Source: an uncultured Gemmatimonadales bacterium
GTDB taxonomy: Bacteria; Gemmatimonadota; Gemmatimonadetes; Gemmatimonadales; GWC2-71-9
Direction of reading: 5' to 3'
DNA: 64,000 bases
Assembly: GCA_963695555.1 (NCBI GenBank)
Contig: CAVOGR010000007.1
Location: 64,001 to 128,000, forward strand
The position numbers were made by a program, and so were the translations under genes. Positions 3,818 to 28,375 of the stretch are shown here, piece after piece. The number at the start of each line of letters is the position of its first letter. The stretch's first letter is position 1. The notes beneath the pieces were generated by a model. It was not told the origin of the DNA. It searched no databases and saw only the letters and a program-made list of their open reading frames with translations.

Positions 3818-3875
3818 GCAGGCGATCCGTGCGGCACGACAAGGACATGATTGGCATCAATGGGAGGGAGATACG

Positions 3876-4412
3876 ATGACAATACGACGCATCATGGGAA
3901 CCGTGATCGCTCTGGCCTGGGCCGGGCTCGTTCCCCGCATGGCAGCGCACGCACAGACTCCATCCGAGGACGACGCTCTCCAAACCGCCGAGGGTGTCGT
4001 GAACCAACTCTACGAGCTGGTCACGATCGAGGCCGGACACAGCCCCGACTGGGACGCGGTCAGGTCACTCTTCCTCGACCAGGCGGTCATCGTATTGCGC
4101 ACCAGTCGAACCGCAACGACGGTATTCTCGGTGGACGGCTTCGTGAACGATTTCGTCACCTTCATCGAAGGGGCCAATGTGCGGGAGACGGGGTTCACGG
4201 AACGAGTGCTACGCACCAAGCCGACGGTCTTCGGCGACATGGCGCACGTGTGGGTGCTCTATGAGGCCAGCATTCCCGGATCGCCGCGGCCGCCGCAGCA
4301 GGGTGTCGACAGCTTCTCGTTGATCAAGCAGGACGGCCGGTGGTGGATTGCCGCGGTCACCAACGAGATCCCGACGCCCACGAGGCCCGTCCCGGCGCCG
4401 CTCCAGGAATAG
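3876..4412 (+). CDS. Secreted NTF2/SnoaL-like protein
   Basis: RBS GGAGGGAG, signal peptide ending AHA-Q, C-terminal GVDSFSLIKQDGRWWI typical of the NTF2-like fold. Confidence 0.78.
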   Translation: MTIRRIMGTVIALAWAGLVPRMAAHAQTPSEDDALQTAEGVVNQLYELVTIEAGHSPDWDAVRSLFLDQAVIVLRTSRTATTVFSVDGFVNDFVTFIEGANVRETGFTERVLRTKPTVFGDMAHVWVLYEASIPGSPRPPQQGVDSFSLIKQDGRWWIAAVTNEIPTPTRPVPAPLQE

Positions 4413-4451
4413 CAGCGGCGCTGGCGGCCCAGGTTACGGGTGTCGTCCGCG

Positions 4452-5075
4452 CTAGCGACGCTCCCAGCTCGCCCTGAAGTCCCGGGTCACTTGGTACACC
4501 AGGGCCTCGATCAGGTCGGAATACGCCCGGTTCGGGTCGTCGGCGTCGAAGGCGAAGTCCCCGCCCCCGAGGATCCTGACGTGACCGACCCGCCGCGTGG
4601 CCCTGGCCGAGCCGCTCCAAAGCGACGCCCCAGAGGCCGTCTCGATCAATTGCACCGCGAGGGTCGCATCGACGTCGGCGGCGACGCTCGATCGGAGGAG
4701 CCCCGGATCGATTCGGACGACGGGCCTCACATCCGAGATCTCGAGCCGCCCGGCGAAGAGGGTCTGGACCCGGTGCCGCTCGCCCAAGGCCTGGATGGCG
4801 GCCGGGTCCAGCCGCGGCCGCCCGACGTCCTGCAGCGCCGTGGACTGGGATCCAAGGTCGGTGATTCGGACCAGGCCCTGGTCCCGGCGCGCGATGTCGA
4901 TGAACCTCCGGGTCGCATAGGAGCCCAGGTCGCCTTCGCTCGAGGCCGTGAACTCGAGTACTCCCACGATTTCATGCTGGGTCAGATCGATGCGGGGCGG
5001 GATCATCACCCTGGTACCGCATCCCGTAGCGATTGCTCCCATGGCCGCTATCCCGAGCACTGGACCGTATTTCAT
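4452..5075 (-). CDS. Hypothetical lipoprotein (CsgG/TolB-N-like alpha/beta domain)
   Basis: Lipobox ATG-C, motifs VGVLEF and VQLIETASGASLWSG. Starts 3 bp after the upstream DUF2892 gene. Confidence 0.65.
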   Translation of the reverse strand: MKYGPVLGIAAMGAIATGCGTRVMIPPRIDLTQHEIVGVLEFTASSEGDLGSYATRRFIDIARRDQGLVRITDLGSQSTALQDVGRPRLDPAAIQALGERHRVQTLFAGRLEISDVRPVVRIDPGLLRSSVAADVDATLAVQLIETASGASLWSGSARATRRVGHVRILGGGDFAFDADDPNRAYSDLIEALVYQVTRDFRASWERR

Positions 5076-5078
5076 GGC

Positions 5079-5273
5079 TTACCCTCGCTGAGCGACGCCG
5101 AGCTTCTCCAGAATCTGCTCCATCAAACACCATTTGGTGATGCTCGACTGGAGGAGGTTCAGCCCGACAAACGCCGTGAAGAGGTACCAATAGGGACTCA
5201 CCCAGTATCCCAGGGCGAGCGAAATGAGGATGAAGCTTCCAGCGATAGCACGAATCGTGTAGTGCATGTTCAT
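5079..5273 (-). CDS. DUF2892 / YgaP-like small membrane protein
   Basis: IRAIAG...FVGLNLLQSSITKWCLMEQIL signature, two TM helices. Confidence 0.88.
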   Translation of the reverse strand: MNMHYTIRAIAGSFILISLALGYWVSPYWYLFTAFVGLNLLQSSITKWCLMEQILEKLGVAQRG

Positions 5274-5329
5274 GGCACACTCCCGAACGGATCGATCATG
5301 GCCGCGGGCCGCCTGGGCCCCGTCGCATC

Positions 5330-5366
5330 AAAAAACGGTGGGAGGATCGAGTCGCCTCCCACCGTT
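5330..5366 (-). terminator. Rho-independent terminator of the peroxiredoxin gene
   Basis: 12-bp stem AACGGTGGGAGG/CCTCCCACCGTT, 9-nt loop, T-run on the minus strand. Confidence 0.8.
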
Positions 5367-5389
5367 CGCATCCATCGCGCGGCAATCTC

Positions 5390-6022
5390 CTACTTGGTCG
5401 GCTGCGGTGTCACTCTGAGGTAGGGCTTCTTGGCATCGAAGCCCGGGAATTTCTTCATTGCCTCCTCGTCCGACACTCCGGTGCCGATGATCACATCCTC
5501 ACCTTCCTCCCAGTCCGCAGGTGTCGCGACCTGGTATTTGGCGGTGAGCTGGAGCGAGTCGAGCGAGCGCAGCAACTCGTCGAAGTTCCGGCCCGTGCTG
5601 GCCGGGTAGGTGAGCGTCAGCCTAACGGTATTGTCCGGCCCAACGATAAACACGGACCGCACGGTGAGCGTGTTGTCCGCGTTGGGGTGGATCATGTCGT
5701 ACAGGTCCGAGACCTTGCGATCGTGGTCCGCAATGAGTGGAAAGTTGAGCTCGTTGCCCGTGACGTCCTTGATGTCCTTGGCCCAACGCTTGTGACTGTC
5801 GAGCGGGTCGACGCTCAGGCCGATGACCTTGGTGTTTCGCTTGTCGAATTCCCGCTTGAGCCCGGCGACCCGGCCCAACTCGGTGGTGCAGACGGGAGTG
5901 AAGTCTTTGGGGTGCGAGAACAGCACGGCCCAGCCATTTCCCTTCCATTCATGGAATTCAATCGGGCCTTCGGTGGTCTCGGCGGTGAAGTTTGGGGCGA
6001 CGTCGCCCAATCGGATTGCCAT
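5390..6022 (-). CDS. 1-Cys peroxiredoxin (Prx6 family)
   Basis: LFSHPKDFTPVCTTE active site, YPASTGRNFDE and ATPADW motifs. Start at ATG 6022 (MAIRLGD). Confidence 0.95.
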   Translation of the reverse strand: MAIRLGDVAPNFTAETTEGPIEFHEWKGNGWAVLFSHPKDFTPVCTTELGRVAGLKREFDKRNTKVIGLSVDPLDSHKRWAKDIKDVTGNELNFPLIADHDRKVSDLYDMIHPNADNTLTVRSVFIVGPDNTVRLTLTYPASTGRNFDELLRSLDSLQLTAKYQVATPADWEEGEDVIIGTGVSDEEAMKKFPGFDAKKPYLRVTPQPTK

Positions 6023-6155
6023 GGGACGGTCCTCGGCACAGAGGTTAGTGAGGCGGCGCATGACCAGCGCCTCCCTCGGGCTCAGTGGGCCGAACCGGGG
6101 GCGCGGGCGCGCAGTTGCTGAGAAGATTGTAGGGTATGACGGTATTTGCGGGCTG

Positions 6156-7139
6156 TCAATTCCGGTTCGACAGCTCGGGCACCGACCCACGGATAGCCGC
6201 CTCGCGGACGTGCGGTGGCTGACTCAAGCCGACCTTCCGCACGTCGAGCGGGATCCCTTTCCGCTCGTCGAGCACCAGCGCGATCGCCCCTGTTTCGCAC
6301 TGTCCCTCACACACCCCACACCCCATGCACTGCTCCCAGGCCACGGCCGCGCGGCCATTCACCGAAATTGCGTCGAAGGGACAGGCTTCTTCGCAGTCGC
6401 CACAGGCGATGCAGGCTCCCTCGTCGACCTCCGCCACGAAGCCCGATGAGGCCACCATGGGGACCGCGTGTCGCTGCATCGCAATCAGACCGCCGCAGCA
6501 GCACCGGCAGCAGTTGCAGATCGCATAGAACCGGTGGTCGCACGCGTCCTTGAAGTACGCCGTATGTACGTGTCCACGCTCATGCTCGGCCTGGAGCAAC
6601 TCAAGCGCCTCCTGCTGCGTCGCCCGGCGGGCTCGGTCGGGGTGATGCTCCAGCACCCAGTCCCCGCCCCCAACCAGCATGCACACCTGCGTCGGCCGAC
6701 AGGGATCTTCCCGCGCCGCCCGGCACGGACACTCGAGCAGCGTCACCCCGGGGGAGCTGGTCAGCACGATATCGCGCGCCGTGGAGTACGGGATGATGTG
6801 CTCGAGGTCGGTGCGCTCGATGTCGTGATCCAGCCGGATGATCTCACAGGCCAGGTTGGTGGGCAGGACCTTGCCGTGGTAGTGCTCGGCCCAGACGCGC
6901 TTGAACCCGGACGACACCCGGGGCGCCAACCGATAGACGAAAAACTTGATGTACTGGTAGCACCACCGGCCATACACGTAGCCGTGCAGGCCGTTCAACA
7001 GGCCACCCCGCCTGCCGTCCCGGCGCGAGCTGAGCGCCTCGCGGGTGGACGGCAGCATCAGGTGGCCGCGCTCGCCGACGAGCCACAGCCCAAGGAACCC
7101 CACCAGCATCAGGCCGGGAACCAGCAGGAGCCAGAGCAT
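6156..7139 (-). CDS. Membrane-anchored 4Fe-4S dicluster protein
   Basis: N-terminal TM helix, CPCR..C, ICNCCRCCCGG, and two ferredoxin motifs (CIACGDCEEACP, CMGCGVCEGQC). Confidence 0.85.
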   Translation of the reverse strand: MLWLLLVPGLMLVGFLGLWLVGERGHLMLPSTREALSSRRDGRRGGLLNGLHGYVYGRWCYQYIKFFVYRLAPRVSSGFKRVWAEHYHGKVLPTNLACEIIRLDHDIERTDLEHIIPYSTARDIVLTSSPGVTLLECPCRAAREDPCRPTQVCMLVGGGDWVLEHHPDRARRATQQEALELLQAEHERGHVHTAYFKDACDHRFYAICNCCRCCCGGLIAMQRHAVPMVASSGFVAEVDEGACIACGDCEEACPFDAISVNGRAAVAWEQCMGCGVCEGQCETGAIALVLDERKGIPLDVRKVGLSQPPHVREAAIRGSVPELSNRN

Positions 7140-7198
7140 CGGTGCCTCCGTCCGGAGTCAGCGACCGGCGGTCGACTCCCAAGCTAGGGCCCCGCAAT

Positions 7199-7227
7199 TG
7201 AAGGTCGAATGAAGGTGACCTGAAGGT
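7199..7227 (-). promoter_or_regulatory. Triple direct repeat TGAAGGT with 11-bp period, candidate operator
   Basis: TGAAGGT at 7199, 7210 and 7221, upstream of the 4Fe-4S gene and of a TAGCTT -10-like hexamer on the minus strand. Confidence 0.55.
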
Positions 7228-7233
7228 GCGGGT

Positions 7234-9684
7234 CTATGGCTGGCCGGCGACACGCACCGGAAACGGCACAATCCCCCTCGGGCGCGACGGGTCGCCGAGT
7301 TCGCCGTAGTAGTTAGCCCCCCAACAATAGGCGACGCCGTTGGTTGATATCGCGCACGTGTGGTCCGGCCCGGCGACTATGGAACGGAAGGTGAGGCTTC
7401 CGATTACCTGGACCGGACTCGACCTGTGCTCCATCGACCCGTCGCCCAATTGGCCGCTGAAATTAGTCCCCCAACAATACGCGGCACCTGCATTGGTGAG
7501 CCCACAGACGTGATCGTCCCCGCTGCTGAGTGACGCGAACGTCAATCCCCCAGGCACAAGCCGCGGTATGTGAGGCGGGTTACCCCACCTGTTAGGCCAG
7601 CAATAAGCTTCTCCAGAATTCGTAATCCCACAGGTTGAGGCAGTGTTTGACGTCAGCTGCGTGAAGGAGTGTCCGCCTGATACCAGGACGGGCAGCGGGC
7701 TATCCGTCCGGACTCCGTTTCCGAGTTCACCATAGTGGTTGTCGCCCCAACAGTAGACCATCCCGGAGGTCGCCAGCCCGCAGACATGGTCCCTTCCAAC
7801 TGCAATCGAGTTGAACAGAATGCCTCCAGCCACTGCCACGGGAACCGGGCTGTCGGCTTGTGAGCCGTCTCCGAGATTGCCAGAGCGGTTTGTCCCCCAG
7901 CAGAACGCGGTCGAGTTCTGGGTCACTCCGCAACCGCCATTCCAGCCCACCGAAAGCTCGACAAAGGTCAGGCCGCCGGAAACCGGGACCGGTACGGGGC
8001 TGTCGATAGCCTGGCCATTGCCGAGCCCTCCGGCGTATCCACTCCCCCAGCAATAGGCGGCTCCACTAGTCGCGAGTCCGCACGTCACCCCGTACGAATC
8101 GCTCGGATGGATGCTCCGGAAGGACAACCCTCCAGCGACAAGGGTCGGCGTGGCTTGGGACCCACCAACGGTGCCGTCGCCCAGGACGCCGCCGCCATTC
8201 CATCCCCAGCAGTAGCCATCACCCGCCACCGTCACGCCACAGGAGTAGCTGCGCCCGGCCTCGATGGAGGCGAAGACAAGCCCCCCGGCGACGGGAACGG
8301 GCAGAGAGTTCGGGCCATACGTGTTGGTTCCATTCCCGAGCTGGCCGCCATCATCATCCCCCCAGCAGTAGCCGGCTCCGGTCGCCGTGATCCCGCAGGT
8401 GTGGTATCCCCCAGCGCTAATGTCGACGAAACTCAACCCGCCCAGCACCGCAACCGGCGGGGACTCCTCATTCTGCTGGTTGGTGCTTCCATTGCCCAAT
8501 TGGCCGACCACATTGGCTCCCCAGCAAAACGCTTCTCCCGCCGCAGTGAGTCCGCAGGCGTGCTCATCGCCATCAGTGATCATGGTGAAGGAGTACCCAG
8601 CTGCTTCGAGCTCCGGCACATATCCGACCTTTCCAGAGTGATGAAAGCGCTTGAACCCCCAGCATCGCACTTCACCACTCGGGGCGAGCCCACAAGTTCG
8701 AAAGATGCTCGCATCGATTTCGCTGAACGTGTGACCGCCAGAGACCGGGGTGGGAGTGAGGCTGTAGTAGGTCGTATCGTGCCCCAGCTGACCGCCGCCG
8801 TCGTATCCCCAGCAATACGCATCCCCGCCGGCGTCCAGGCCGCAAGACACGTGGTATCCCTGAGAGGAGACGGAGGTGAAGAGGTGCCCTCCGACAACCG
8901 CTGTCGGAGTGAGGCGACCCGTTCGCGTCCCGTCACCCAGCTGCCCGAAGGAGTTGGACCCCCAACAGTAGGTGGTGCCCGAGAGAGCGAGACCACACGT
9001 ATGGCTAGATGAGCCAGAGATGGCACTGAAGCTCAGCCCTCCAGCAACGGCAACCGGAGCACGTTGCGCAATCGTGGTCCCGTCACCCAGCTGACCCGCG
9101 TAGTTGTCACCCCAACAATGGGCGCGATCACTCTCGGTGATCCCGCAGGCTCCCCCCCAGCGGCTAATGAGTGTCTTGAACTGCAGGCCGCCCGACACCG
9201 CAACAGGAAACGCCGCCGATGTGGTATCGCTCGATCCGGTTCCCAGCTGTCCGTACCAGTTCGACCCCCAGCAGTACACCCTCCCCATGGTGGTCAAGCC
9301 ACAGCTGGAGCTTCCCCCGGCATGAACTTCGGCAAACTCCACGCTGAAGCTGGTGATCTCGGTGTGCCCGCTCACGTCATCAATCGTTGCCGTGATCGTC
9401 ACTACACCCTCTGCCCTCGCGGTGACCCTGCCGCCGGCCGAGACGATGGCGATCGTCGAATCACTCGTTGTCCACGCGACAGGTCGGCCTAATACAGCGT
9501 TGCCGGCGTTGTCGAACGCTTGCGCTGCGAGCGCGACTTGCCCGCCGAGTATGACCGAATCCCGGCTGCTGCTGATCGTGACCGAGGCAACCGGCACCGG
9601 AGTCGGAGCCGCGACCGGCTCCTCACCGCACGCGGCAGCGGCCACCAGGGTCAATAGAAAAACAGAGCGATCCTGCCAGGGCAT
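7234..9684 (-). CDS. Lipoprotein with Big_2 (Ig-like) domain and 14 RCC1-like repeats
   Basis: RBS GAGAGGGA before ATG 9684, lipobox AAA-C, Ig-like WTTSDSTIAIVS..G.VTA, then 14 xxCWG..GQLG-type repeats. Confidence 0.88.
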   Translation of the reverse strand: MPWQDRSVFLLTLVAAAACGEEPVAAPTPVPVASVTISSSRDSVILGGQVALAAQAFDNAGNAVLGRPVAWTTSDSTIAIVSAGGRVTARAEGVVTITATIDDVSGHTEITSFSVEFAEVHAGGSSSCGLTTMGRVYCWGSNWYGQLGTGSSDTTSAAFPVAVSGGLQFKTLISRWGGACGITESDRAHCWGDNYAGQLGDGTTIAQRAPVAVAGGLSFSAISGSSSHTCGLALSGTTYCWGSNSFGQLGDGTRTGRLTPTAVVGGHLFTSVSSQGYHVSCGLDAGGDAYCWGYDGGGQLGHDTTYYSLTPTPVSGGHTFSEIDASIFRTCGLAPSGEVRCWGFKRFHHSGKVGYVPELEAAGYSFTMITDGDEHACGLTAAGEAFCWGANVVGQLGNGSTNQQNEESPPVAVLGGLSFVDISAGGYHTCGITATGAGYCWGDDDGGQLGNGTNTYGPNSLPVPVAGGLVFASIEAGRSYSCGVTVAGDGYCWGWNGGGVLGDGTVGGSQATPTLVAGGLSFRSIHPSDSYGVTCGLATSGAAYCWGSGYAGGLGNGQAIDSPVPVPVSGGLTFVELSVGWNGGCGVTQNSTAFCWGTNRSGNLGDGSQADSPVPVAVAGGILFNSIAVGRDHVCGLATSGMVYCWGDNHYGELGNGVRTDSPLPVLVSGGHSFTQLTSNTASTCGITNSGEAYCWPNRWGNPPHIPRLVPGGLTFASLSSGDDHVCGLTNAGAAYCWGTNFSGQLGDGSMEHRSSPVQVIGSLTFRSIVAGPDHTCAISTNGVAYCWGANYYGELGDPSRPRGIVPFPVRVAGQP

Positions 9685-19925: not shown

Positions 19926-20531
19926 CTAACTGCGATTGGGCCTGAACATGCTCCAGGTATGGATCTCGCCGACGTGGGCTTCCGCGGTCACGTGGTATCC
20001 CACCCGCTCGTAATACGGCACGTTTGACGGATCCTCGGTGCTGAGCGTGACACCGGTCGAGACCGGGTCCGCCTCGGACATGGCTTGGATATGTTCCAGC
20101 AAGATCCGGCCGTAGCCGCTGCCTTGATGGCCTGGCGCCACCCCGATCATGCCGAGGAAGTAGTGCGGCTCATCGGGCTCGTGACCGGTGCTTTGGCGCT
20201 CGTACCTGGCCATACGCTCGAACGCCTCGGGGCCGATAATGGTGGCAACCCGACGGTGCTTCCGTGTGAGCTCGGGCGGTGCGAGCAGATCACGAGGCTC
20301 CGACACCAGCGCCGCTGCTACGAGATCCTCCCCTTGCCGGATGCCCAGCACCGGCCAGCCTCGGGTCAACCGGGCATCGCAGTAGAAGCCTATGAGCTCG
20401 CGGAGCCGCGCGCCGTACTCGTCGCCGGCGTCCGCCAGGGCGAAGCGCATGACAGGGTAGTCATGGAAGGCGGCGGCGAGCACGTCGATCACGTGCTCCC
20501 GATCGGCCTCGGTCAAGCGCTCAACAGTCAC
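19926..20531 (-). CDS. GNAT family N-acetyltransferase
   Basis: HYFLGMIGVAPGHQGSGYG (motif A), NVPYYERVGY. Confidence 0.9.
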   Translation of the reverse strand: MTVERLTEADREHVIDVLAAAFHDYPVMRFALADAGDEYGARLRELIGFYCDARLTRGWPVLGIRQGEDLVAAALVSEPRDLLAPPELTRKHRRVATIIGPEAFERMARYERQSTGHEPDEPHYFLGMIGVAPGHQGSGYGRILLEHIQAMSEADPVSTGVTLSTEDPSNVPYYERVGYHVTAEAHVGEIHTWSMFRPNRS

Positions 20532-20895: not shown

Positions 20896-23800
20896 TTAAC
20901 CGGGTTTGAGACGCCGAAGGTCGCGCCTGGCCTCGTCCACGAGCGGTTTCGTGAGTGAGTCTGCATTGGTCCACGCACTGATGAAGTGCTCGTAAGACTG
21001 GACGGCACGCTGGGTGTCTCGATTCGCTTCGTACGCTTGTGCCCGCATGAGATAGGAGAGGCTACGTAAGCCCCAAGCGTAGTCGGGACCATCCACGCGA
21101 AGCGGCAGGCTGTCGAGTCGCGCGAACAACTCGGCCGCATGGCCCTGATCGCCGATGCGGGTTGCCACAACACCAAGGATCAATGCCCTCGTCGCATCGC
21201 TTACACCCGGGACCTTCGTCCCCACGGCTTGGCGAAGCAGTGCGTGAGCGGTGACCGAGTCCCGTTTGCTCATGACGAGCGCGCGCCACAATGGGGTATC
21301 GAGTCCGAGACCGTCATCCCACGCCGCCAAGGCCGAATCATCCCATGCCAGCGCTGGTGCGATGTCAAATGTCGCGTTGCGGCGCAACAACCGGATTTGC
21401 CGCTCCGAATACTTGGGAGGTGACCAGACACGGCGAAGGGCATCCAACTCATGTCTGAGCGGTAGTCCGCCCACTCCGGTGGCACCCAATACGCGTATTC
21501 GTTCAATGATGACGTCGGCACCGCCATAGGGTATGAGAGAATCCGCAAGGCTATCCGGCATAAAGCTCTGCTTCGTGCTGTGCGACACGAGCGTCAGCGT
21601 ACGCAAGGGCTGCCCCAGGGCCAAGAAGACGTCGACGGCGAGCTGATCTGGAGGTTCAGTGCCATATCGCTCGAGCGCCTCTTCCGTCAGCCTGGCCGCT
21701 TCGGCGGGATCGCCTGCCCCTAGGTAAAGGCTCCCCAGCCGGAGGAGATCGATTGGCAGCGTGTCTCCCTTGAGCGCGAGAGCTTGAGCAGCATTCTCCA
21801 GGGCCAGTTGTGCCAGGCTGTCGATGGACTCCGGAGCGGCCAATTTCAAGCGCGCCCTCCGCGCGAGCATCGCAGCGGCGATCTCTTCCCGGGGTTGGGC
21901 CAGCCCCGGGGCGAAGTCGGCCCATCGGCGGATGGCCTGGACCGATTGGTCGAACAGCCGAGTGGCGCCTGCTTCAGCCAAGGACGGATCGAGCGAATCG
22001 AACGCCGCCTTGCTCACCCATTCGATCGAGTCCAGCGCAACCGGACAAAAGGCGCGGAGGCGATGTGGCGTCTTGTCCCCCCAAGGCGCAATGAACTCGT
22101 CACGGGGCAGTTCGAAGCCGCCGCAGACTCCGCGATCGATCGGTTCCGTCACGGCCTTGTAGATCTCAAACAGATGCCCGTAGCCAAGGTCGAATGTCGG
22201 CTGGAGTCGCACCGCCTCGGAGAATGCATGAATCGCCACGTTGAGGTTGCTACGAGGCGCTAGCCTCCCCGGTGACTTTTCTTCCAGCCATGGATCACGA
22301 TACTCCACGCTGCCAAGCATCAGCCAGGCGTAGACATCGGTGGAATCTGATTTCAGTATCGACTGGTAGCGTTGGCGAGCGGTCTCGTAATCGCCCTGCT
22401 GGAAGGCATAGAATGCAGCGATGTGCATGCTGTCCCGAATCGGCAGGCCGGCCGAATGTCGCAGGGCAAATGCACTCAGGCTCACAATCTCGGGGCCAAC
22501 GCTCTCGAGCCGCATGTCGCTTGGAGCGGCCTGCCAGTACAGGGTCTGGGCCAGGTTGTTCATCGCAGTCGCAAACGATGTGTCCAGCACGATGGCCTGG
22601 CGGAAGCTCCGCTCGGCGTCGCCGAGTCGCCAACTCGCTAGATATCGCTGCCCCTCGGTCAAGCGGGCGAGTGCCGCGGGCACGGCGGTCAGCCGACGCA
22701 ACTCGCCCGGGTCGGCGGTAACCTGATCGATGCCCAGAATCCCGTACACCACCGGCGCTACCAGCGTCGACATCTCGTTGGCGGCACCCGAGGCTTGTAT
22801 CGAGGGGCCTACGCTCTTCTGGCTTCGTGCATCAAACAGAGTGGCTTCAACGAACGCCGTGTCGCCCCGCAGGTTGAGGGTCACCGCGGCCAGGGCCTGG
22901 GCGCCCACGGTCCTCGCCACGGAGATCCCGTCCTCGATCAGCTCCAGCGTCGGGCCTGGGAGTCCCAGATCAAAGAGCGGCCCACTCAACGAGACGCTGG
23001 GAATGGCCCGGATGGATTCCCATTTGTTCAATTCCCGGGTGATGTCGTCCGCCAGATCACTCGCCATTGCTCGCTCACGCGCGGTCGAGGTGGAAGTGCT
23101 GAACGGCATCACGACCACTGACTCGGGACGGCCATCCACCCATGCCGTGGCGCGGGAAGCCCCGAGCGTCTTCCCTCCGATCACCGCCGCGGCAAGGATG
23201 ATCAACAGCCCTCCCACCGCAATCACGGGGTGGTCCCTCATCGGGCGTACCATCAGCTCCCAAGGCTTGGCCCGGCGTCGCTCGACGCGGTCCTGGATGG
23301 CACCCGACATCCCACCCACCGGCACGCCGTACTCGGGAGTGGTCAACGTGGTGAGCGCGGCGCCGAATTCGTCGGCTGTGCGATACCGATCGGCCGGCAC
23401 CTTGGCCAGTGCCTTGAATACTGCCTGCTCCAAGGGCTCCGAGATGGTTAGCCGCACCGTCCTGAGGCTCGGGACGGGATCCACGGCGTGCCGCGCGAGT
23501 ACGGCCTGTGACGTGGGGCCGGTGAAGGGCGGCTCGCCGACCAACGCCTCATACAGTACGCAGCCCAAGGCGTAGATATCGCTGCGTGCGTCGATCTCAC
23601 TCCTCCCGGTCGCCCGCTCCGGACTCATGTAGGTTGGGGTGCCCAAGGCGAGACCCGTCTGGGTCAGCTTCTCCCCTCCGGCCTCGGTCACGGCCCGAGC
23701 AATCCCAAAGTCGGCAACCACCGCCAGCTCACCCGTCAAGAGGATGTTCTCCGGCTTGATGTCGCGGTGCACGACACCGAGGCCGTGTGCGTGGTCCAAT

Positions 23801-24174
23801 GCCCGGGCGACTTGCTGGACGATCCGGACCGCCTCTCCGATGGGAAGCTGGTTCTCCCGATCCAGCCGTTGGCGGAGCGTTTCACCCTCGACATAGGGCA
23901 TCACATAGAACAGAAATCCGTCGGCCTCACCGGAGTCGATCAGCGGCAGGATGTGCGGGTGATTGAGGCTTGCGGTGAGTTTGATCTCACGCAGGAACCG
24001 CTCAGTGCCCAACGCAGCGGCTAATTCGGGGTGCATGACCTTGACCGCCACCTCGCGATCGTGCTTCACGTCGCGAGCCAGGTACACGGTGGCCATACCG
24101 CCCGATCCGATCTCCCGTTCGATGGGGTAGCGGTCGGCGAGCGCTGATTTCAGGCGGTTGAGGTCATCGAGCAC
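20896..24174 (-). CDS. Hanks-type Ser/Thr kinase with TM helix, TolB-N-like and TPR-like domains
   Basis: IGSGGMATVY, VAVKV, HRDIKPEN, DFG, GTPTYMSPE, a TM helix, SVVVMPF, then a helical-repeat C-terminus. Confidence 0.93.
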   Translation of the reverse strand: MLDDLNRLKSALADRYPIEREIGSGGMATVYLARDVKHDREVAVKVMHPELAAALGTERFLREIKLTASLNHPHILPLIDSGEADGFLFYVMPYVEGETLRQRLDRENQLPIGEAVRIVQQVARALDHAHGLGVVHRDIKPENILLTGELAVVADFGIARAVTEAGGEKLTQTGLALGTPTYMSPERATGRSEIDARSDIYALGCVLYEALVGEPPFTGPTSQAVLARHAVDPVPSLRTVRLTISEPLEQAVFKALAKVPADRYRTADEFGAALTTLTTPEYGVPVGGMSGAIQDRVERRRAKPWELMVRPMRDHPVIAVGGLLIILAAAVIGGKTLGASRATAWVDGRPESVVVMPFSTSTSTARERAMASDLADDITRELNKWESIRAIPSVSLSGPLFDLGLPGPTLELIEDGISVARTVGAQALAAVTLNLRGDTAFVEATLFDARSQKSVGPSIQASGAANEMSTLVAPVVYGILGIDQVTADPGELRRLTAVPAALARLTEGQRYLASWRLGDAERSFRQAIVLDTSFATAMNNLAQTLYWQAAPSDMRLESVGPEIVSLSAFALRHSAGLPIRDSMHIAAFYAFQQGDYETARQRYQSILKSDSTDVYAWLMLGSVEYRDPWLEEKSPGRLAPRSNLNVAIHAFSEAVRLQPTFDLGYGHLFEIYKAVTEPIDRGVCGGFELPRDEFIAPWGDKTPHRLRAFCPVALDSIEWVSKAAFDSLDPSLAEAGATRLFDQSVQAIRRWADFAPGLAQPREEIAAAMLARRARLKLAAPESIDSLAQLALENAAQALALKGDTLPIDLLRLGSLYLGAGDPAEAARLTEEALERYGTEPPDQLAVDVFLALGQPLRTLTLVSHSTKQSFMPDSLADSLIPYGGADVIIERIRVLGATGVGGLPLRHELDALRRVWSPPKYSERQIRLLRRNATFDIAPALAWDDSALAAWDDGLGLDTPLWRALVMSKRDSVTAHALLRQAVGTKVPGVSDATRALILGVVATRIGDQGHAAELFARLDSLPLRVDGPDYAWGLRSLSYLMRAQAYEANRDTQRAVQSYEHFISAWTNADSLTKPLVDEARRDLRRLKPG

Positions 24175-24474
24175 AACGGTTCTCCCAGGCTGGCCCTAGG
24201 ATAGGCCGTGGCAGCGGGAATCGCCAGAGCGTCGGGCCAAAAATACGGCACTGGGCCCTAAGCATCGCTGGTGAATGGTGGGTCGTAAGTCTCAGGGCAT
24301 GAGACAGGAGCCCGATGACCTGAGCTAGCTACTCTTGCCGTAAGCGCTCCTCGCAGGGCTCCAACAGCAAGAGACTAGTGACGAACGACTCACGCCACGC
24401 CATCTTTCTCTGAGCGCACTATGAACGGAGTGGCCTACTATATAGGATAGGCTCCAGTGAGAGGAGGCGTGGTC

Positions 24475-24999
24475 ATGCCGCAATTCAGCGTCAATCCCAA
24501 CCGATTCGATCCCTACAAGAACTTCAAGTTCCGGGTCAAGTGGGAAGGCAAGTACGTGGCCGGCGTGAGCAAGATCAGCGCGCTGGTACGTACCACCGAG
24601 GTGGTGAAGCATCGTGAGGGTGGCGACCCGAGCACCAGCCGGAAGTCGCCGGGGCGGACGGAATACGAGCCGGTGACCCTCGAGCGTGGGGTGACCCATG
24701 ACCTCGAGTTCGAGAGATGGGCCAACAAGGTGTGGAACTTTGGGTCGGGACTGGGGACCGAGGTCTCGCTCAAGGACTTCCGGAAGGATGTGATCCTCGA
24801 ACTCTACAACGAGGCTGGGCAGCTGGTACTAGCATACAAGCTGTTCCGCTGCTGGGTCTCGGAGTTCCAGGCGCTGCCCGAATTGAATGCCAATGACGGT
24901 GCCGTCGCGATCCAGAAGCTCACGCTCCAGAACGAGGGGTGGGAGCGCGACTACGACGTCACAGAGCCCGAGGAGCCGTCCTTCACGGAGCCCAGCTAG
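24475..24999 (+). CDS. Contractile injection system inner tube protein (T4 gp19/Afp1-like)
   Basis: RBS GAGGAGG. RFDPYKNFKFRVKW, HREGGDPST.RKSPGRT.Y..VTLERGVT and LYNEAGQLVLAY..FRCWVSE are characteristic of eCIS tubes. Confidence 0.93.
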   Translation: MPQFSVNPNRFDPYKNFKFRVKWEGKYVAGVSKISALVRTTEVVKHREGGDPSTSRKSPGRTEYEPVTLERGVTHDLEFERWANKVWNFGSGLGTEVSLKDFRKDVILELYNEAGQLVLAYKLFRCWVSEFQALPELNANDGAVAIQKLTLQNEGWERDYDVTEPEEPSFTEPS

Positions 25000-25010
25000 G
25001 AGGATTCGGC

Positions 25011-25622
25011 ATGCCTGGTTCACGATCGCCGAAGGTGCTGAAGGGGGCCCTCGTGCGGCTGGACGATCAGGGGGCGGGGGCGGGGGCGCCGGCCCAGGTC
25101 GTGGTCTTTCAGTACAACCCCGAGACGCTTCACCGAAGACTCGAGGAACGACCGAGCGGGCCGCCACAGGAAGTCATCACCTGCTCGCTCGCGTTCGACG
25201 CGACCGACGCCTTGGAATTCCCGGACGAGAACCCGCTCGTGGTGGAGCACGGGATCTATCCGATGCTAGCGGCGCTCGAGCTGCTCCTGCACCCGCGCGA
25301 AGCGCGGGGCGGGGGGTCCAGCTGGTGGCCGTTCTGGCCGTTCGGTTCGGGGTCGGAGGTAGAGCGCGAGCCCGTGCTCATTTTCCTCTGGGGCGACCAG
25401 CGCGCCGTCCCCGTTCGGCTCACCCGGCTCGACATCACGGAGGAGCAGCACGATCCGCAACTGCATCCGATCCGGGCTAACGTCAGGCTTAGGATGCGAG
25501 TGGTCACCGACCAGGATGTTCCTGGGGGGCACCGGGGAGCCCGGCTCTGGCGAGAGCACCTGAGCCGGATGCGGACCCTGGCGCACGGGGTCTACACGGG
25601 GGTGCCGCCCGTTCGCATCTAG
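25011..25622 (+). CDS. CIS tube-initiator-like protein (Afp7/gp48-like)
   Basis: RBS GGAGG 11 bp after the tube stop. SPKVLKGALV, FQYNPETL.R, DATDALEFPD, LAALELLL.P, LFLWG-type (LIFLWG), ITEE..DP.L.PIRA.V match a family found in eCIS loci. Confidence 0.78.
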   Translation: MPGSRSPKVLKGALVRLDDQGAGAGAPAQVVVFQYNPETLHRRLEERPSGPPQEVITCSLAFDATDALEFPDENPLVVEHGIYPMLAALELLLHPREARGGGSSWWPFWPFGSGSEVEREPVLIFLWGDQRAVPVRLTRLDITEEQHDPQLHPIRANVRLRMRVVTDQDVPGGHRGARLWREHLSRMRTLAHGVYTGVPPVRI

Positions 25623-25723
25623 GAGTGCACAGGGGCCGATCAGCTGAGAGAGTTCGAGAGCTTGATGGAGGGCGACGTCGTTTTGTTTGCTGTCCAGCTT
25701 TGTGCTTCCTACTTCCTGCCTTC

Positions 25724-26080
25724 CTACCTTCCTGCCTCCATCGTCTTCTGCCCGATCCGGAAGATCACGAACTCGGCCGGCCTCGTGGGTGCCACTCCGA
25801 TCATCGAGATCAGCCGGCCGTTATCGATGTCATCTTGGGTCATGGTCGTCCGATCGCACGTGACGAAGAAGGCCTCCTCCGCCGTGGCCCCGGAGAGTGC
25901 GCCGGTCCGCCACACGGTGGTGAGGAAGTTTGATATCGCAGTTCGAACGGCGGTCCACGTTGTCTGCTCGTTGGGCTCGAACACCACCCACTGGGTTCCG
26001 CGGTAGATCGACTGCTCGAGGTAGATGAAGAGACGCCGGACGTTGACGTACCTCCATTCCGGGTCCGACGACATGGTGCG
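25724..26080 (-). pseudogene. C-terminal domain of a contractile tail sheath protein (N-terminus missing)
   Basis: RT(M)SSDPEWRYVNVRRLFIYLE.SI..GTQWVVFEPN...AFFVTCDRTTMTQDDIDNGRLI..IGVAP.RPAEFVIFRI. Homology stops abruptly at about 26080. The frame is intact from ATG 26074. Confidence 0.85.
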
Positions 26081-26160
26081 GGGCGGAACATTATTGAGTC
26101 GCAAGTCCCAAGTCGGAGGACTTAAGACTTGGCACCCCTCAACTTCTTCCCTTTCTCACC

Positions 26161-28312
26161 CTACACCACCAACGGCAACTCCCGGAGCCGCTTACCCGTG
26201 AGCACCGCCACCGCGTTCGCCACGGCCGGCGCGCTCGGAGGCACCGCGACCTCCCCCACCCCGCCCGGCCGCTCCATGCTCGACACGATGTGGGTCTCGA
26301 CCCGGGGCATCTCCTTCAGGCGCAGGATGACGTAGTCGTGGAAGTTCGCCTCCTGCACTCGGCCTTCCTTTAATGTGAGCTTGCTATGGAGCGCCGCGCC
26401 GAGTCCAAATGCCACGGCGGATTCCATTTGCGCGGCGATGGCCTCGGGATTGACGGCAATGCCGCAATCGACGGCGCACACTACGCGGTGCACCCGAATC
26501 TTGCCGGCCTCGATCGACACCTCGGCCACCTCGGCGACGAAGCTGCCGAACGATTCGTGCACCGCCACTCCGCGCGCCCAGCCCTTGGGCAACGGTGTTC
26601 CCCAACCGGCCTTCTCGGCCGCCAGGTTGAGCACCCCCAGGTGCCGGGGATGACCTTGAAGCAGCCGCCGACGATACGCGACCGGGTCCTGACCCGCGGT
26701 CTGCGCCAACTCGTCGATCAGTGTCTCCATCACGAACGCGGTGTGAGTATGCCCCACCGACCGCCACCAGAGGACCGGGATCGCGGTCTTGGGCGAGTGA
26801 AGTCCGACCCTGCGATTCGGAATCGACGCGAGATAGGGTGAGTCGGCGACGCCCTCGACCGAGGACGAGTCGATCCCGTTTTGCACCAATGCGCCTTCGA
26901 ATGCGGTCCCGGCTGCGATCGATTGCCCGACCGCGACGTGATCCCAAGCGGTCGGCATGCCATCGTCGCTTAGCCCGACCCGGACCCGATGCACGAAGGC
27001 CGGGCGGTAGTAGCCCCCGCGCACGTCGTCCTCGCGGGTCCATACCACCTTGACCGCTTTGCCGCTCTGCTTGGCGACGTGCACCGCTTCGACCACGAAG
27101 TCCGAGGCCGGGCTGGCACGTCGGCCGAAACCGCCACCGAGGAAGGTGGTGTGGATCGTGACCTGCTCCGGCTTGAGGCCGAGGATCTGCGCCGCCAGCG
27201 GCTGATCCGGCCCCTGGAACTGCGTACCGGTCCAGATCTCGCACTTGTCGGGACTGATGCGGACGGTGCAGTTGAGCGGTTCCATCGGCGGCGTGTGCCA
27301 GGTACGGCACCGCATATTCCGCATCGATCGTCTTCGACGCCGCGGCGAACGCCGCGGTGACGTCGCCGGCCGCGACGGCTTGCATGCCAGGGGTCTCTGC
27401 CAGGCGGCTCCACTGCTGCTGCAGCTCTGCACTGTCCAGCGTCGCGCCGGGGCCGAGATCCCACTCGATCTCGAGCGCCGAGCGGCCCTGCCGAGCCGCC
27501 CAGAAGTGGTCGGCGAGCACAGCGACACCGCTCGGCACCTGCACTACGCCACGCACGCCGGGCACGGCCTTGGCCTTGGTTGCATCAAATGACTTGACCG
27601 TGCCACCGAACACCGGCGAGCGCGCAACCAGGGCGGTGAGCAGCCCGTCGAACTGGACATCCATGCCGAACTTGGCGCGGCCGGTGATCTTCTCCGGCGT
27701 GTCGAGCCGCTTGGTCGGCTTACCGATGATCTTCCAATCCTTCGGGTCTTTGAGCGTGACGCTCGCGGGCTTCGGCAGCTGGGCGGCGGCATCGGCCAAC
27801 TCGCCGAAGGTCGCGCGATTGTCCCCGGCGATGACCGCACCGTTCTCGGTGCGGCAGGCTGATACCGGAACGCCGTAGCGCTGGGACGCGGCCTCCACAA
27901 GGAGCGTGCGGGCCATGGCTCCGGCCTCGCGATAGCGCTGGAACTCGGACCACGTGGTGGTTGATCCGCCGGTGGCCTGGATGCCGAAGGCAGTGTGCGC
28001 GTAGACCGGTGCGGCTGGCGCGTGCTCCACCTTGATCTTGCTCCAATCGGCGTCGAGCTCCTCGGCGATCAGCATCGGCAGCGTAGTCCAGATGCCCTGG
28101 CCCATCTCCGAGTGCGCCAAGAGCACGGTCACGGTGTCGTCACTACCGATCCGAAGGAACGCATTCGGCACAAAAGGTTCAGTGCCCGGTATGGCCTCCG
28201 CCTGAACAAAACGTCGAGCGCCGGGCACGGCGAAGGCAATCACCAGCCCGCCTGAGACGGCGGCGCCGGTCTTCAGGAAATCGCGGCGAGTGGGGTGTGG
28301 CTTAGCGGTCAC
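26161..28312 (-). CDS. iorB: Isoquinoline 1-oxidoreductase beta-like Mo-binding subunit (frameshifted near 27291)
   Basis: Tat signal TRRDFLK, EMGQG, GGGFGRR, WWRSVG, GGVGE. One extra base in the expected YLAHAPMEP motif splits it into ORFs 26384..28330 and 26161..27528. Confidence 0.85.
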
Positions 28313-28375
28313 GGGTACGGCTCCTTTCAACGGCTCGATTAGCCATCACGATTCGCTAGCACGGCTCCGGCCGGT

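What the first reader, a model, noticed from the sequence alone, without database searches (positions are those of the whole stretch)
24475..26131. Minimal orphan contractile-injection module: tube, tube initiator and an inverted sheath C-terminal domain
Seen in sequence: an intact gp19/Afp1-type tube gene is tightly coupled (11-bp gap, GGAGG) to an Afp7/gp48-like initiator gene. Converging on them is an open 116-codon frame encoding only the sheath C-terminal domain. The window has no baseplate, spike, PAAR, terminator, ATPase or tape-measure gene. Established: in full eCIS loci the sheath is normally upstream of and co-oriented with the tube, the initiator lies several genes away, and the sheath C-terminal domain forms the tube-proximal layer. 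Inference: this is either a rearranged eCIS remnant or a repurposed non-contractile tube/filament system that kept just the tube-building and tube-contacting parts. The clean coupling and lack of stops favour selection on the two plus-strand genes.
Basis: partly seen in the sequence, partly recalled or inferred. Interest (0 to 1): 0.72.

Follow-up and report, generated by a model that had tools for sequence, protein, structure and literature searches.

The report
Orphan injection-system tube and initiator pair
Two leftover genes of a phage-tail-like injection machine, the tube and its starter ring, are kept intact by selection in bacteria that have lost the rest of the machine, while the neighbouring "sheath domain" is only a broken-off end of a sheath gene from a different machine.

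Summary
The three ORFs exist as described: tube 24475-24999 (+), an Afp7/Cis7-like initiator 25011-25622 (+, 11-bp gap, GGAGG), and a converging sheath C-terminal ORF 25724-26074/26104 (-). No other contractile-system gene was found in this 87%-complete genome.

They are not one module. Tube and initiator come from one eCIS lineage ("A"). In 79 of the 80 closest tube loci a sheath lies directly upstream, and the initiator lies 6.6-10.3 kb downstream of the tube.

The sheath ORF is the last ~117 residues of a sheath from another lineage ("B"). It is cut exactly at a rearrangement breakpoint and has no Shine-Dalgarno. A near relative has it full-length (533 aa, 91% identical), and a sister species lacks it.

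The tube-initiator pair recurs in at least three different flanking contexts. It is under purifying selection (tube dN/dS 0.04-0.07; initiator about 0.2). The sister genome is 98% complete and has no match to the gp25, spike, Baseplate_J or sheath C-terminal families.

Best reading: an exapted, sheath-less tube plus initiator pair beside eCIS debris.

The parts
24377..24474 (+). Upstream region of the tube gene, with the Shine-Dalgarno GAGAGGAGG at about 24459-24467. It is a possible own promoter region of the pair.
   Evidence: Homology with metagenome locus L178 starts at 24377 although the gene upstream of it differs. Homology with G002 starts at 24460, at the RBS. The sigma-70 consensus scan found no promoter-like site.
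24475..24999 (+). Tail-tube gene (gp19/Afp1/Cis1 type), 174 aa, intact.
   Evidence: PF06841 149.9 bits. TIGR02241 144.6 bits. 76-82% identical to tubes of 80 complete-looking eCIS loci. dN/dS 0.044-0.073 in three pairwise comparisons.
25011..25622 (+). Afp7/Cis7-type tube-initiator gene, 203 aa. It belongs to a divergent subfamily and is coupled to the tube gene by an 11-bp gap holding GGAGGA.
   Evidence: The subfamily clade has 100/100 support. dN/dS is about 0.19-0.24.
25724..26104 (-). 5'-truncated sheath gene fragment: the last ~117 codons of a lineage-B sheath. Possible starts are ATG 26074 or TTG 26104, neither with a Shine-Dalgarno.
   Evidence: PF17482 72.5 bits. The best 150 library matches align from query residue 8-17, nearly all from 8-9; 146 of them are 200 aa or longer and 4 are shorter. 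91% identical to residues 415-532 of the 533-aa sheath P0151. Tree. No SD.
26083..26097 (.). Breakpoint. Sheath homology ends at 26082/26083, and synteny with the sister genome's iorB flank resumes at 26097.
   Evidence: Blastn against G002. The run X17 contig follows the window up to 26082 and then continues into sheath-coding sequence, matching P0151.
25620..25723 (.). Junction between the pair and the sheath fragment, with an 8-nt tandem CTTCCTRC x3 at 25712-25743.
   Evidence: Homology with G002 ends at 25619. Repeat D1. A run X4 contig bridges 25582-25795 with a 7-nt insertion in the repeat.

Best explanation
The locus holds two unrelated leftovers of contractile injection systems.

(1) Tube plus initiator. 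The tube gene and the Afp7/Cis7-type initiator gene form a two-gene operon derived from a widespread eCIS lineage ('A'). All intervening and flanking eCIS genes have been lost. Selection keeps the pair in a small group of Gemmatimonadales-like genomes where no other contractile-system gene was found. Inferred mechanism, not shown: the initiator forms a ring that nucleates stacking of tube hexamers. The product would be a sheath-less, baseplate-less and therefore non-contractile ring or tube, used for something other than injection. The initiator has been remodelled, with an 18-residue deletion and a new Trp-rich loop, as expected after loss of its spike and baseplate partners. The tube has stayed as conserved as tubes in complete systems.

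(2) Sheath piece. The converging 'sheath C-terminal domain' is a 5'-truncated piece of a sheath gene from a second eCIS lineage ('B'). A near relative has it full-length. It is most likely a non-functional remnant and not a partner of the pair.
For: SHOWN.

Canonical layout:
- In 79 of the 80 closest tube loci (76-82% identity, many phyla) a sheath lies directly upstream. The 80th locus is cut 55 nt before the tube.
- 79 of 80 have the p242 gene directly downstream. The 80th is cut by its contig end.
- An initiator homologue is seen in 29 of 80. In 28 it is co-oriented, 6.6-10.3 kb downstream of the tube. In one (L070) it lies in an inverted block upstream. It is never adjacent to the tube.

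Recurrence of the pair in different contexts:
- G002 (same genus, 98% complete) has the pair at the syntenic place. Homology runs only from the tube RBS to the initiator stop (24460-25619, 93.6% nt). It has 5.3 kb and 4.7 kb of other genes on the two sides.
- L178 has the pair next to the GNAT gene, without the kinase.

Selection (Nei-Gojobori):
- Tube: dS 0.26-0.29, dN 0.012-0.019, omega 0.044-0.073 in 3 of 3 pairs. For G000-G002, 5 nonsynonymous of 33 changes, binomial P 5e-14 against neutrality.
- Initiator: omega 0.19-0.24, 8 nonsynonymous of 19 changes, P 0.0025.
- Neighbouring kinase: omega 0.18 at dS 0.29.

Rates:
- Tube identity: orphan to canonical median 83%, canonical to canonical 82%.
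- Initiator identity: window to canonical median 39%, canonical to canonical 56%.
- The initiator subfamily is a 100/100 clade of 17 sequences with 36 invariant columns.

No other parts:
- gp25, sheath C-terminal domain and Baseplate_J were not found in G001-G004, and the spike OB domain was not found in G000 and G002. Each family was found in the control genome G019.
- For G000 itself.

Sheath piece: lineage B; truncation at the breakpoint; 533-aa relative; no SD.

More debris: a truncated eCIS-type AAA domain sits on contig C3. It is 60% identical to G019's ATPase and was not found in G001-G004.

INFERRED: that the two proteins assemble together, and what the assembly is for.
Against: - G002's initiator carries a 1-base insertion after codon ~151. 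If real, the initiator is dispensable there. The shifted frame still reads 44 of 51 identical residues. Both assemblies also show single frame changes in the conserved iorB gene, so this may be an assembly error.
- G000 is only 87% complete.
- In relatives (the 14,124-nt contig and the run X17 contig) a full-length or longer sheath still lies beside the pair. The pair may therefore have lost its partners only recently in G000 and G002.
- Another relative has the initiator fused to an AAA domain (P0273).
- I could not see the surroundings of those contigs, or of the deeper subfamily members (44-77% identity). 'Orphan' is shown for G000 and G002 only.
- No assembly, binding or expression was shown. 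Contigs from RNA libraries cover the genes, but such libraries can hold DNA.
- The initiator's omega rests on 19-30 changes.
Confidence: 0.6

Rival explanations
1. Recent decay of a still-functional chimeric system. In the nearest relatives the lineage-A tube and initiator work with the adjacent full-length lineage-B sheath, and with further genes on that 14-kb contig. G000 and G002 would simply be late stages of loss, and the low dN/dS would mostly reflect the time before the loss.
For: A 533-aa sheath (91% identical to the fragment), an initiator (87%) and a tube (98%) all come from contigs of the same length, 14,124 nt. The run X17 contig spans tube, initiator and the converging sheath, and runs on into sheath sequence past the window's break.
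Against: - The three compared lineages (G000, G002, L178) differ in their flanks yet each keeps tube omega at or below 0.073 over dS of about 0.27. Two of them lack the full sheath.
- The sheath is convergent and of another lineage. Lineage-B loci pair it with tubes only 24-36% identical to this one, in 61 of 80 loci with a tube hit, and 0 of 80 have an initiator hit.
- In lineage-B loci the genes needed downstream of that sheath would lie where the pair now sits.
Confidence: 0.15
2. One reading: tube, initiator and a stand-alone sheath C-terminal domain act together as a tube-building and tube-coating set.
For: The frame is open for 116-143 codons. The PF17482 domain is complete, at 72.5 bits. 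GC3 is 0.84, like the neighbours. A run X3 contig at 97.7% identity carries the same truncated form next to iorB.
Against: - It is of a different eCIS lineage from the tube.
- It is cut at a rearrangement breakpoint.
- It has no Shine-Dalgarno, whereas both plus-strand genes have one.
- G002 keeps the pair but lacks it.
- Only 4 of the best 150 library matches are under 200 aa.
- From recalled structural knowledge: the sheath inner domain also needs the N-terminal strand, which is missing here.
Confidence: 0.06
3. Pure junk: all three ORFs are decaying pseudogene remnants with no function.
For: The locus is surrounded by rearrangements. Another eCIS fragment lies elsewhere in the genome. There is a frameshift in G002's initiator.
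Against: Tube: 5 nonsynonymous against 28 synonymous changes, P 5e-14 against neutrality. Initiator: P 0.0025. Both genes keep their start, their Shine-Dalgarno and an open frame in G000, and L178 keeps them as far as its contig reaches.
Confidence: 0.05
4. The pair is exapted for a role that needs no tube polymer. Examples: an Hcp-like ring that chaperones or stores a cargo, or a decoy that poisons assembly of incoming myophage tails or tailocins (defence by structural mimicry).
For: The tube keeps canonical-level conservation on all surfaces, as a mimic of phage or eCIS parts would. The pair sits in a variable, island-like spot.
Against: There is no defence-gene neighbourhood, and no neighbour is conserved across the three contexts.
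Confidence: 0.15

Closest known systems
Afp/PVC-type extracellular contractile injection systems. The closest is the widespread lineage seen here in 80 loci and in the family member G019: sheath, tube, p242, Pvc16-like cap, AAA ATPase, eCIS_core cargo, Cis7-like initiator, p375, VgrG, PAAR-like, gp25, Baseplate_J.
   Same: The tube is 76-82% identical to tubes of these loci. The initiator is 34-44% identical and keeps 24 invariant columns of the family.
   Different: Only 2 of at least 8 core subunit types are present as whole genes. Tube and initiator are fused into one operon instead of lying 6.6-10.3 kb apart. No sheath, spike, baseplate or cap was found, and the only ATPase trace is a truncated AAA fragment on another contig. 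Chen et al. 2019 (PMC6899500, passages read) report that more than 85% of eCIS-like loci have at least eight subunit types.
Afp7 / Pvc7 / Cis7 tube initiators (PDB 6rao_G, 6j0n_b, 9qgl_7A, 7aeb_M, 7b5h_AK, 9gtp_M) and myophage baseplate initiators (8kea, phage P1 9vzk_2/9ay5_G)
   Different: No LysM domain was detected. There is no adjacent spike gene. The protein belongs to a separate subfamily with an 18-residue deletion and a Trp-rich loop (SSWWPFWPFG) that is modelled at low confidence, residues 101-118.
Orphan hcp genes of type VI secretion systems (recalled, not searched here)
   Same: Tube-family genes kept away from the main machine. Hcp rings also act as chaperones.
   Different: Orphan Hcp proteins still serve a complete T6SS elsewhere in the genome. 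Here no machine was found in either genome.
Domesticated remnants of defective prophages and other mobile elements under purifying selection (PMC8987985, abstract seen in the listing; Bobay et al. 2014, seen only as a reference)
   Same: Parts of a phage-derived element are retained and constrained after the element has lost its autonomy.
   Different: Those cases are usually whole functional blocks such as tailocins and GTAs. I know of no described tube-plus-initiator pair kept alone, and searches listed none.

Membership tests
eCIS locus (Afp/PVC-like; core set as in PMC6899500) | Tube protein (Afp1/5, PF06841) | tested here: met
   149.9 bits. It is the only copy in the genome.
eCIS locus (Afp/PVC-like; core set as in PMC6899500) | Full-length sheath (Afp2/3/4; PF04984 + PF17482) | tested here: not met
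   PF04984 has 0 matches in the genome. Only the last ~117 residues of a sheath are present.
eCIS locus (Afp/PVC-like; core set as in PMC6899500) | Spike (Afp8/VgrG, PF04717), gp25-like wedge (Afp9, PF04965) and Baseplate_J (Afp11, PF04865) | tested here: not met
   0 matches in G000, which is 87.1% complete, and 0 in G002, which is 98% complete. The same searches found each family in G019. tblastn with eCIS frames also found none.
eCIS locus (Afp/PVC-like; core set as in PMC6899500) | Cap/terminator (Afp16, Pvc16_N PF14065) | tested here: not met
   0 matches. That search rang in no control genome, so it is weak on its own. tblastn with stop-to-stop frames of lineage-A records (incl. G019) and lineage-B loci, which contain the Pvc16-like frames, also found none in G000.
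eCIS locus (Afp/PVC-like; core set as in PMC6899500) | AAA+ ATPase (Afp15) of full length | tested here: not met
   There is only a truncated AAA domain on contig C3: a 268-aa frame with PF00004 at residues 134-258. G019's ATPase lies in an 893-aa open frame.
Afp7/Cis7 tube-initiator family | Tube-like fold matching solved initiators | tested here: met
   Foldseek top 9 and VIA-align top 9 are all CIS or myophage baseplate-initiator chains. The model has pLDDT 80.8.
Afp7/Cis7 tube-initiator family | Pfam PF19266 CIS_tube above its gathering score | tested here: not met
   21.7 bits against a cut-off of 27. The canonical homologue in G019 is also below it, at 21.2 bits.
Afp7/Cis7 tube-initiator family | LysM domain (Afp7 is listed as a LysM protein in PMC6899500) | tested here: not met
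   No LysM hit at E up to 0.1. None was found in G019's homologue either.
Afp7/Cis7 tube-initiator family | Encoded next to the spike and baseplate genes | tested here: not met
   In the window it follows the tube and precedes a sheath fragment. In 29 canonical loci its homologue precedes p375 and VgrG.
Afp7/Cis7 tube-initiator family | Binds the tube and nucleates its polymerisation | not testable with these tools
Phage/CIS tail sheath | N-terminal strand plus middle (subtilisin-like) domain plus C-terminal domain in one chain | tested here: not met
   Only the C-terminal domain is present. The relative P0151 has PF04984 and PF17482 in 533 aa. The window aligns to its residues 415-532.

The most novel reading that the evidence does not exclude
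A clade of Gemmatimonadales-like bacteria has turned two eCIS parts, the tube and a remodelled Cis7-type initiator, into an autonomous two-gene system. It would build a sheath-less, baseplate-less ring or nanotube with a cellular role unrelated to injection. The initiator subfamily (17 clusters at 44-91% identity, with its own Trp-rich loop) would mark this new system more widely in uncultured bacteria.
Probability: 0.33. Interest if true: 0.75.

Novelty: new variant of a known kind. Interest (0 to 1): 0.5.

Why it matters
Contractile injection systems are treated as all-or-nothing machines, and genome surveys count only loci with most core genes. A tube-plus-initiator pair under strong purifying selection in genomes with no other detectable contractile-system gene would show that single sub-assemblies of these machines can be exapted. 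It would also offer a natural minimal system for studying how an initiator nucleates tube polymerisation without baseplate, tape measure or sheath, which matters for engineering eCIS-derived nanotubes.

The case is also a caution. An open, domain-complete ORF beside related genes (the sheath piece) can be debris from a different system.

Tried and rejected
Nothing was folded, so binding is untested.
- Single-protein scans for the initiator found only distant loci in genome contigs (2 loci at 35-46%) and one cut contig in metagenome contigs (L178).
- The subfamily alignment A2 found only one close locus in genome contigs. It found nothing close in viral contigs.
- Co-occurrence on those contigs rests only on equal contig lengths.
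- Searching 401 genomes of the family found the divergent initiator type only in G000 and G002. It found no near-identical full sheath; the best was 62%.
- The promoter/terminator scan gave 0 promoter-like sites and one terminator-like site inside the initiator gene, no more than in shuffles.
- The repeat search found no flanking repeats that would mark a mobile cassette.
- I considered and dropped an integron-cassette reading, because the flanks diverge immediately after the stop codon.
- The earlier-findings index had nothing for this place, sequence or these words.
- Parts of the stretch without cover in single runs are not used as evidence.
- Row L062 was dropped from alignment A1 because its frame held 2 stops. 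L052, L054 and L064 were left out as near-duplicates, and L038 because it is cut by its contig end.
Full report
OBSERVATION.

- a 174-aa tube gene at 24475-24999 (+);
- a 203-aa gene at 25011-25622 (+);
- a converging ORF at 25724-26104 (-), 126 aa from TTG or 116 aa from the ATG at 26074.

The tube stop (TAG, 24997-24999) is followed by GGAGGA, and the next ATG comes after an 11-bp gap. The tube has its own GAGAGGAGG seven bases before its start. Neither possible start of the minus-strand ORF has a Shine-Dalgarno.

Family assignments:
- Tube: Pfam PF06841, 149.9 bits; NCBIfam TIGR02241.
- Minus-strand ORF: PF17482, 72.5 bits, covering profile positions 1-101 of 104.
- Second gene: only a sub-threshold PF19266 hit, 21.7 bits against a cut-off of 27.

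THE REST OF THE GENOME.

The window is G000:C7:64001-128000, inside a contig of 859,215 nt. The assembly has 14 contigs, 3.57 Mb, and is 87.1% complete. Whole-genome searches gave:
- one PF06841 match and one PF17482 match, both in this locus;
- no match for PF04965 (gp25), PF04865 (Baseplate_J), PF04984 (sheath middle domain), PF14065 (Pvc16_N) or PF04717 (spike OB domain).

tblastn with all long frames of five lineage-A and three lineage-B records hit only the three genes and one further piece. That piece is a truncated AAA domain at G000:C3:66342-67148. It is 48-50% identical to eCIS ATPases, 60% to the ATPase of family member G019, and was not found in the four other species of the genus.

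WHERE TUBE AND INITIATOR COME FROM.

The 80 closest tube loci in one-genome-per-species contigs are 76-82% identical and come from many phyla. Marking them with the eCIS proteins of G019 showed one canonical layout:
- Sheath directly upstream in 79 of 80. The 80th locus starts 55 nt before the tube.
- A 242-aa gene directly downstream in 79 of 80. The 80th is cut by its contig end.
- Then a Pvc16-like cap and the ATPase.
- An initiator homologue within the held flank in 29 of 80. In 28 it is co-oriented, 6.6-10.3 kb downstream of the tube, followed by p375, VgrG, a PAAR-like gene and gp25. In one (L070) the baseplate block is inverted upstream.

None of the 80 has the initiator next to the tube. 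The window's operon therefore joins two genes that are normally far apart.

THE PAIR RECURS IN DIFFERENT SURROUNDINGS.

- G002 (same genus, 98% complete, 10 contigs) has the pair between the same kinase and iorB genes. Homology with the window runs only from the tube's RBS to the initiator's stop (24460-25619, 93.6% nt). It adds 5.3 kb on one side (three unknown proteins and a LuxR-type response regulator). On the other side, 4.7 kb (metallophosphatase, CAAX protease, epimerase, signal peptidase) stands where the window has 478 bp. These extra genes have no orthologues in G000.
- Metagenome contig L178 has the pair directly beside the GNAT gene that lies at 19926-20531 in the window, without the kinase.
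- In G004 the iorB flank holds no pair within about 3 kb.
- In the protein collection, tubes at 89-98% identity and initiators of the same subfamily at 68-90% come from contigs of equal length: 14,124; 3,906; 12,768; 7,692; 43,497 nt. That is indirect evidence of co-location, and I could not read those contigs.
- Among 401 genomes of the family, the divergent initiator type was found only in G000 and G002. Three others (G019, G184 and G261) have the canonical type at 40-43%. The G261 row rests on an unpublished genome.

SELECTION.

Nei-Gojobori estimates:
- Tube: omega 0.044, 0.073 and 0.055 for the three pairs of G000, G002 and L178, at dS 0.26-0.29.
- Kinase next door: omega 0.18 at dS 0.29.
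- Initiator: omega 0.23 over codons 1-151 (G000-G002), and 0.19-0.24 over codons 1-117 (three pairs).

Against neutrality, the tube has 5 nonsynonymous of 33 changes (P 5e-14) and the initiator 8 of 19 (P 0.0025).

The tube is no further from canonical tubes (median 83%) than canonical tubes are from each other (82%). The initiator is (39% against 56%). The initiator belongs to a separate, internally diverse subfamily: 17 sequences at 43-91% identity, 36 invariant columns, split from canonical by a branch with 100/100 support. It keeps 24 columns invariant across the whole family. It has lost an 18-residue segment and gained a Trp-rich loop that the model leaves disordered, residues 101-118.

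One result against a needed initiator: G002 has one extra base at the place of window 25466, which splits its gene after codon ~151. The shifted frame still reads 44 of 51 identical residues. Both G000 and G002 also show one frame change each, at different places, in the conserved iorB gene, where G004 has none. I therefore cannot tell a real mutation from an assembly error.

THE SHEATH PIECE.

- Against 1.84 billion representatives, the best 150 matches align from query residue 8-17, nearly all from 8-9; 146 of them are 200 aa or longer, 4 are shorter than 200 aa, and identities are 63-75%.
- The 80 closest genomic loci (65-78%) are a different eCIS lineage ('B': cap, sheath 1, tube, sheath 2, tube 2 ... 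spike, gp25, Baseplate_J). In 75 of 80 the match lies in an open frame of 389 aa or more. Their tubes (hit in 61 of 80) are only 24-36% identical to the window's tube. None of the 80 gave an initiator hit.
- The sheaths that accompany lineage-A tubes are only 43-54% identical to the piece.
- In a tree of 71 C-terminal domains, the 29 lineage-A sequences form one clade (100/100). The window's piece lies outside it, among lineage-B 'sheath 1' sequences. That tree has only 115 columns, so finer placement is unsure.
- Sheath homology starts about five residues before the Pfam domain, just after the conserved WG.RT motif that full sheaths carry. Synteny with G002 resumes at 26097.
- A 2,072-nt contig from an RNA-library run (X17, about 90.6% identical) follows the window from 24529 to 26082. 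It then continues for 523 nt that differ from the window. The first 30 of those letters, read on the minus strand, encode the motif ESRGVRVWGA, joined in frame to RTMSSD.
- The same 16 residues occur in P0151, a 533-aa sheath with both Pfam sheath domains. It is 91% identical to the piece over its residues 415-532 and comes from a 14,124-nt contig.

So a near relative has tube, initiator and a converging, longer sheath gene, and the window has that gene's broken-off 3' end. A run X3 contig (605 nt, 97.7% identical) bridges the truncated piece into iorB. A run X4 DNA contig bridges the initiator's end into the sheath's end. The window's arrangement is therefore real and occurs in other samples. 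G002 has no sheath C-terminal domain at all.

INTERPRETATION.

Shown:
- The pair is a rearranged derivative of a lineage-A eCIS.
- It persists in changing surroundings and is constrained.
- The sheath ORF is a fragment of a lineage-B gene.
- G000 also holds an ATPase fragment.
- No other contractile-system gene was detected in G000 or G002.

Inferred: the pair still does what these folds do. The initiator ring would template tube hexamers. With no sheath, baseplate, spike or tape measure, the product cannot contract or inject, so its use is new. The asymmetry fits an initiator that lost its lower partners but kept its upper one: the tube is unchanged while the initiator is remodelled.

The main rival is that the partners were lost only lately and that relatives still run a chimeric machine. 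The decisive data are the unseen contigs.

LITERATURE.

- PMC6899500 (passages read) reports that more than 85% of 631 eCIS-like loci hold at least eight core subunit types, and lists Afp7 as a LysM protein.
- PMC10598620 (passages read) treats eCIS as domesticated prophage clusters.
- PMC8987985 (abstract in the listing) reviews recruited mobile-element parts under purifying selection.
- Searches listed no paper on a stand-alone tube-initiator pair. This covers only the held library, and I read no supplements.

VERDICT.

Noticed in passing
window 26161-28330 (-): The iorB-like molybdopterin oxidoreductase gene changes reading frame at about 27289. It reads as two overlapping ORFs of 455 and 648 aa. 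G004's copy is in one frame, and G002's copy changes frame at another place. This is either a pseudogene or a single-base assembly error. It bears on how far G002's initiator frameshift can be trusted.
   Followed up: partly
G000:C3:66342-67148 (-) = L199:6343-7149: A truncated AAA+ domain (PF00004 at residues 134-258 of a 268-aa frame) lies just after an acyltransferase gene. It is 48-50% identical to eCIS Afp15-like ATPases and 60% to G019's. It was not found in G001-G004. It is a third eCIS-derived fragment in this genome.
   Followed up: partly
proteins P0273 / P0507 (contigs of 7,692 and 7,641 nt): In another metagenome lineage the subfamily initiator is fused in frame to the C-terminal AAA domain of an eCIS-type ATPase (349-356 aa). 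A tube 89% identical to the window's comes from a contig of the same length.
   Followed up: partly
window 25712-25743: An 8-nt tandem repeat CTTCCTRC x3 begins at the stop codon of the sheath fragment. A contig of run X4 has a 7-nt insertion in it.
   Followed up: no
L008 (G002:C2) 4285-9120: The 5.3-kb insert upstream of G002's tube gene encodes proteins of 444, 716 and 126 aa with no Pfam family. The 126-aa one has a weak receiver-like NCBIfam hit. There is also a LuxR-type response regulator divergent from the tube gene. This may be a regulatory neighbourhood.
   Followed up: no
window 20896-24174 (-) and genus genomes: The Ser/Thr kinase-TPR gene next to the pair has dozens of kinase-domain paralogues (64-73% nt identity) in G001, G003 and G004.
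   Followed up: no
L096 (G004:C373) 1-396 and 3161-6466: G004's contig carries a 396-nt duplicate of an internal iorB segment 2.8 kb upstream of the complete iorB gene. A kinase paralogue lies between the two.
   Followed up: no
L070 (genome contigs locus): It is the only one of 29 canonical loci in which the initiator-to-Baseplate_J block lies inverted upstream of the sheath, instead of downstream of the ATPase.
   Followed up: no
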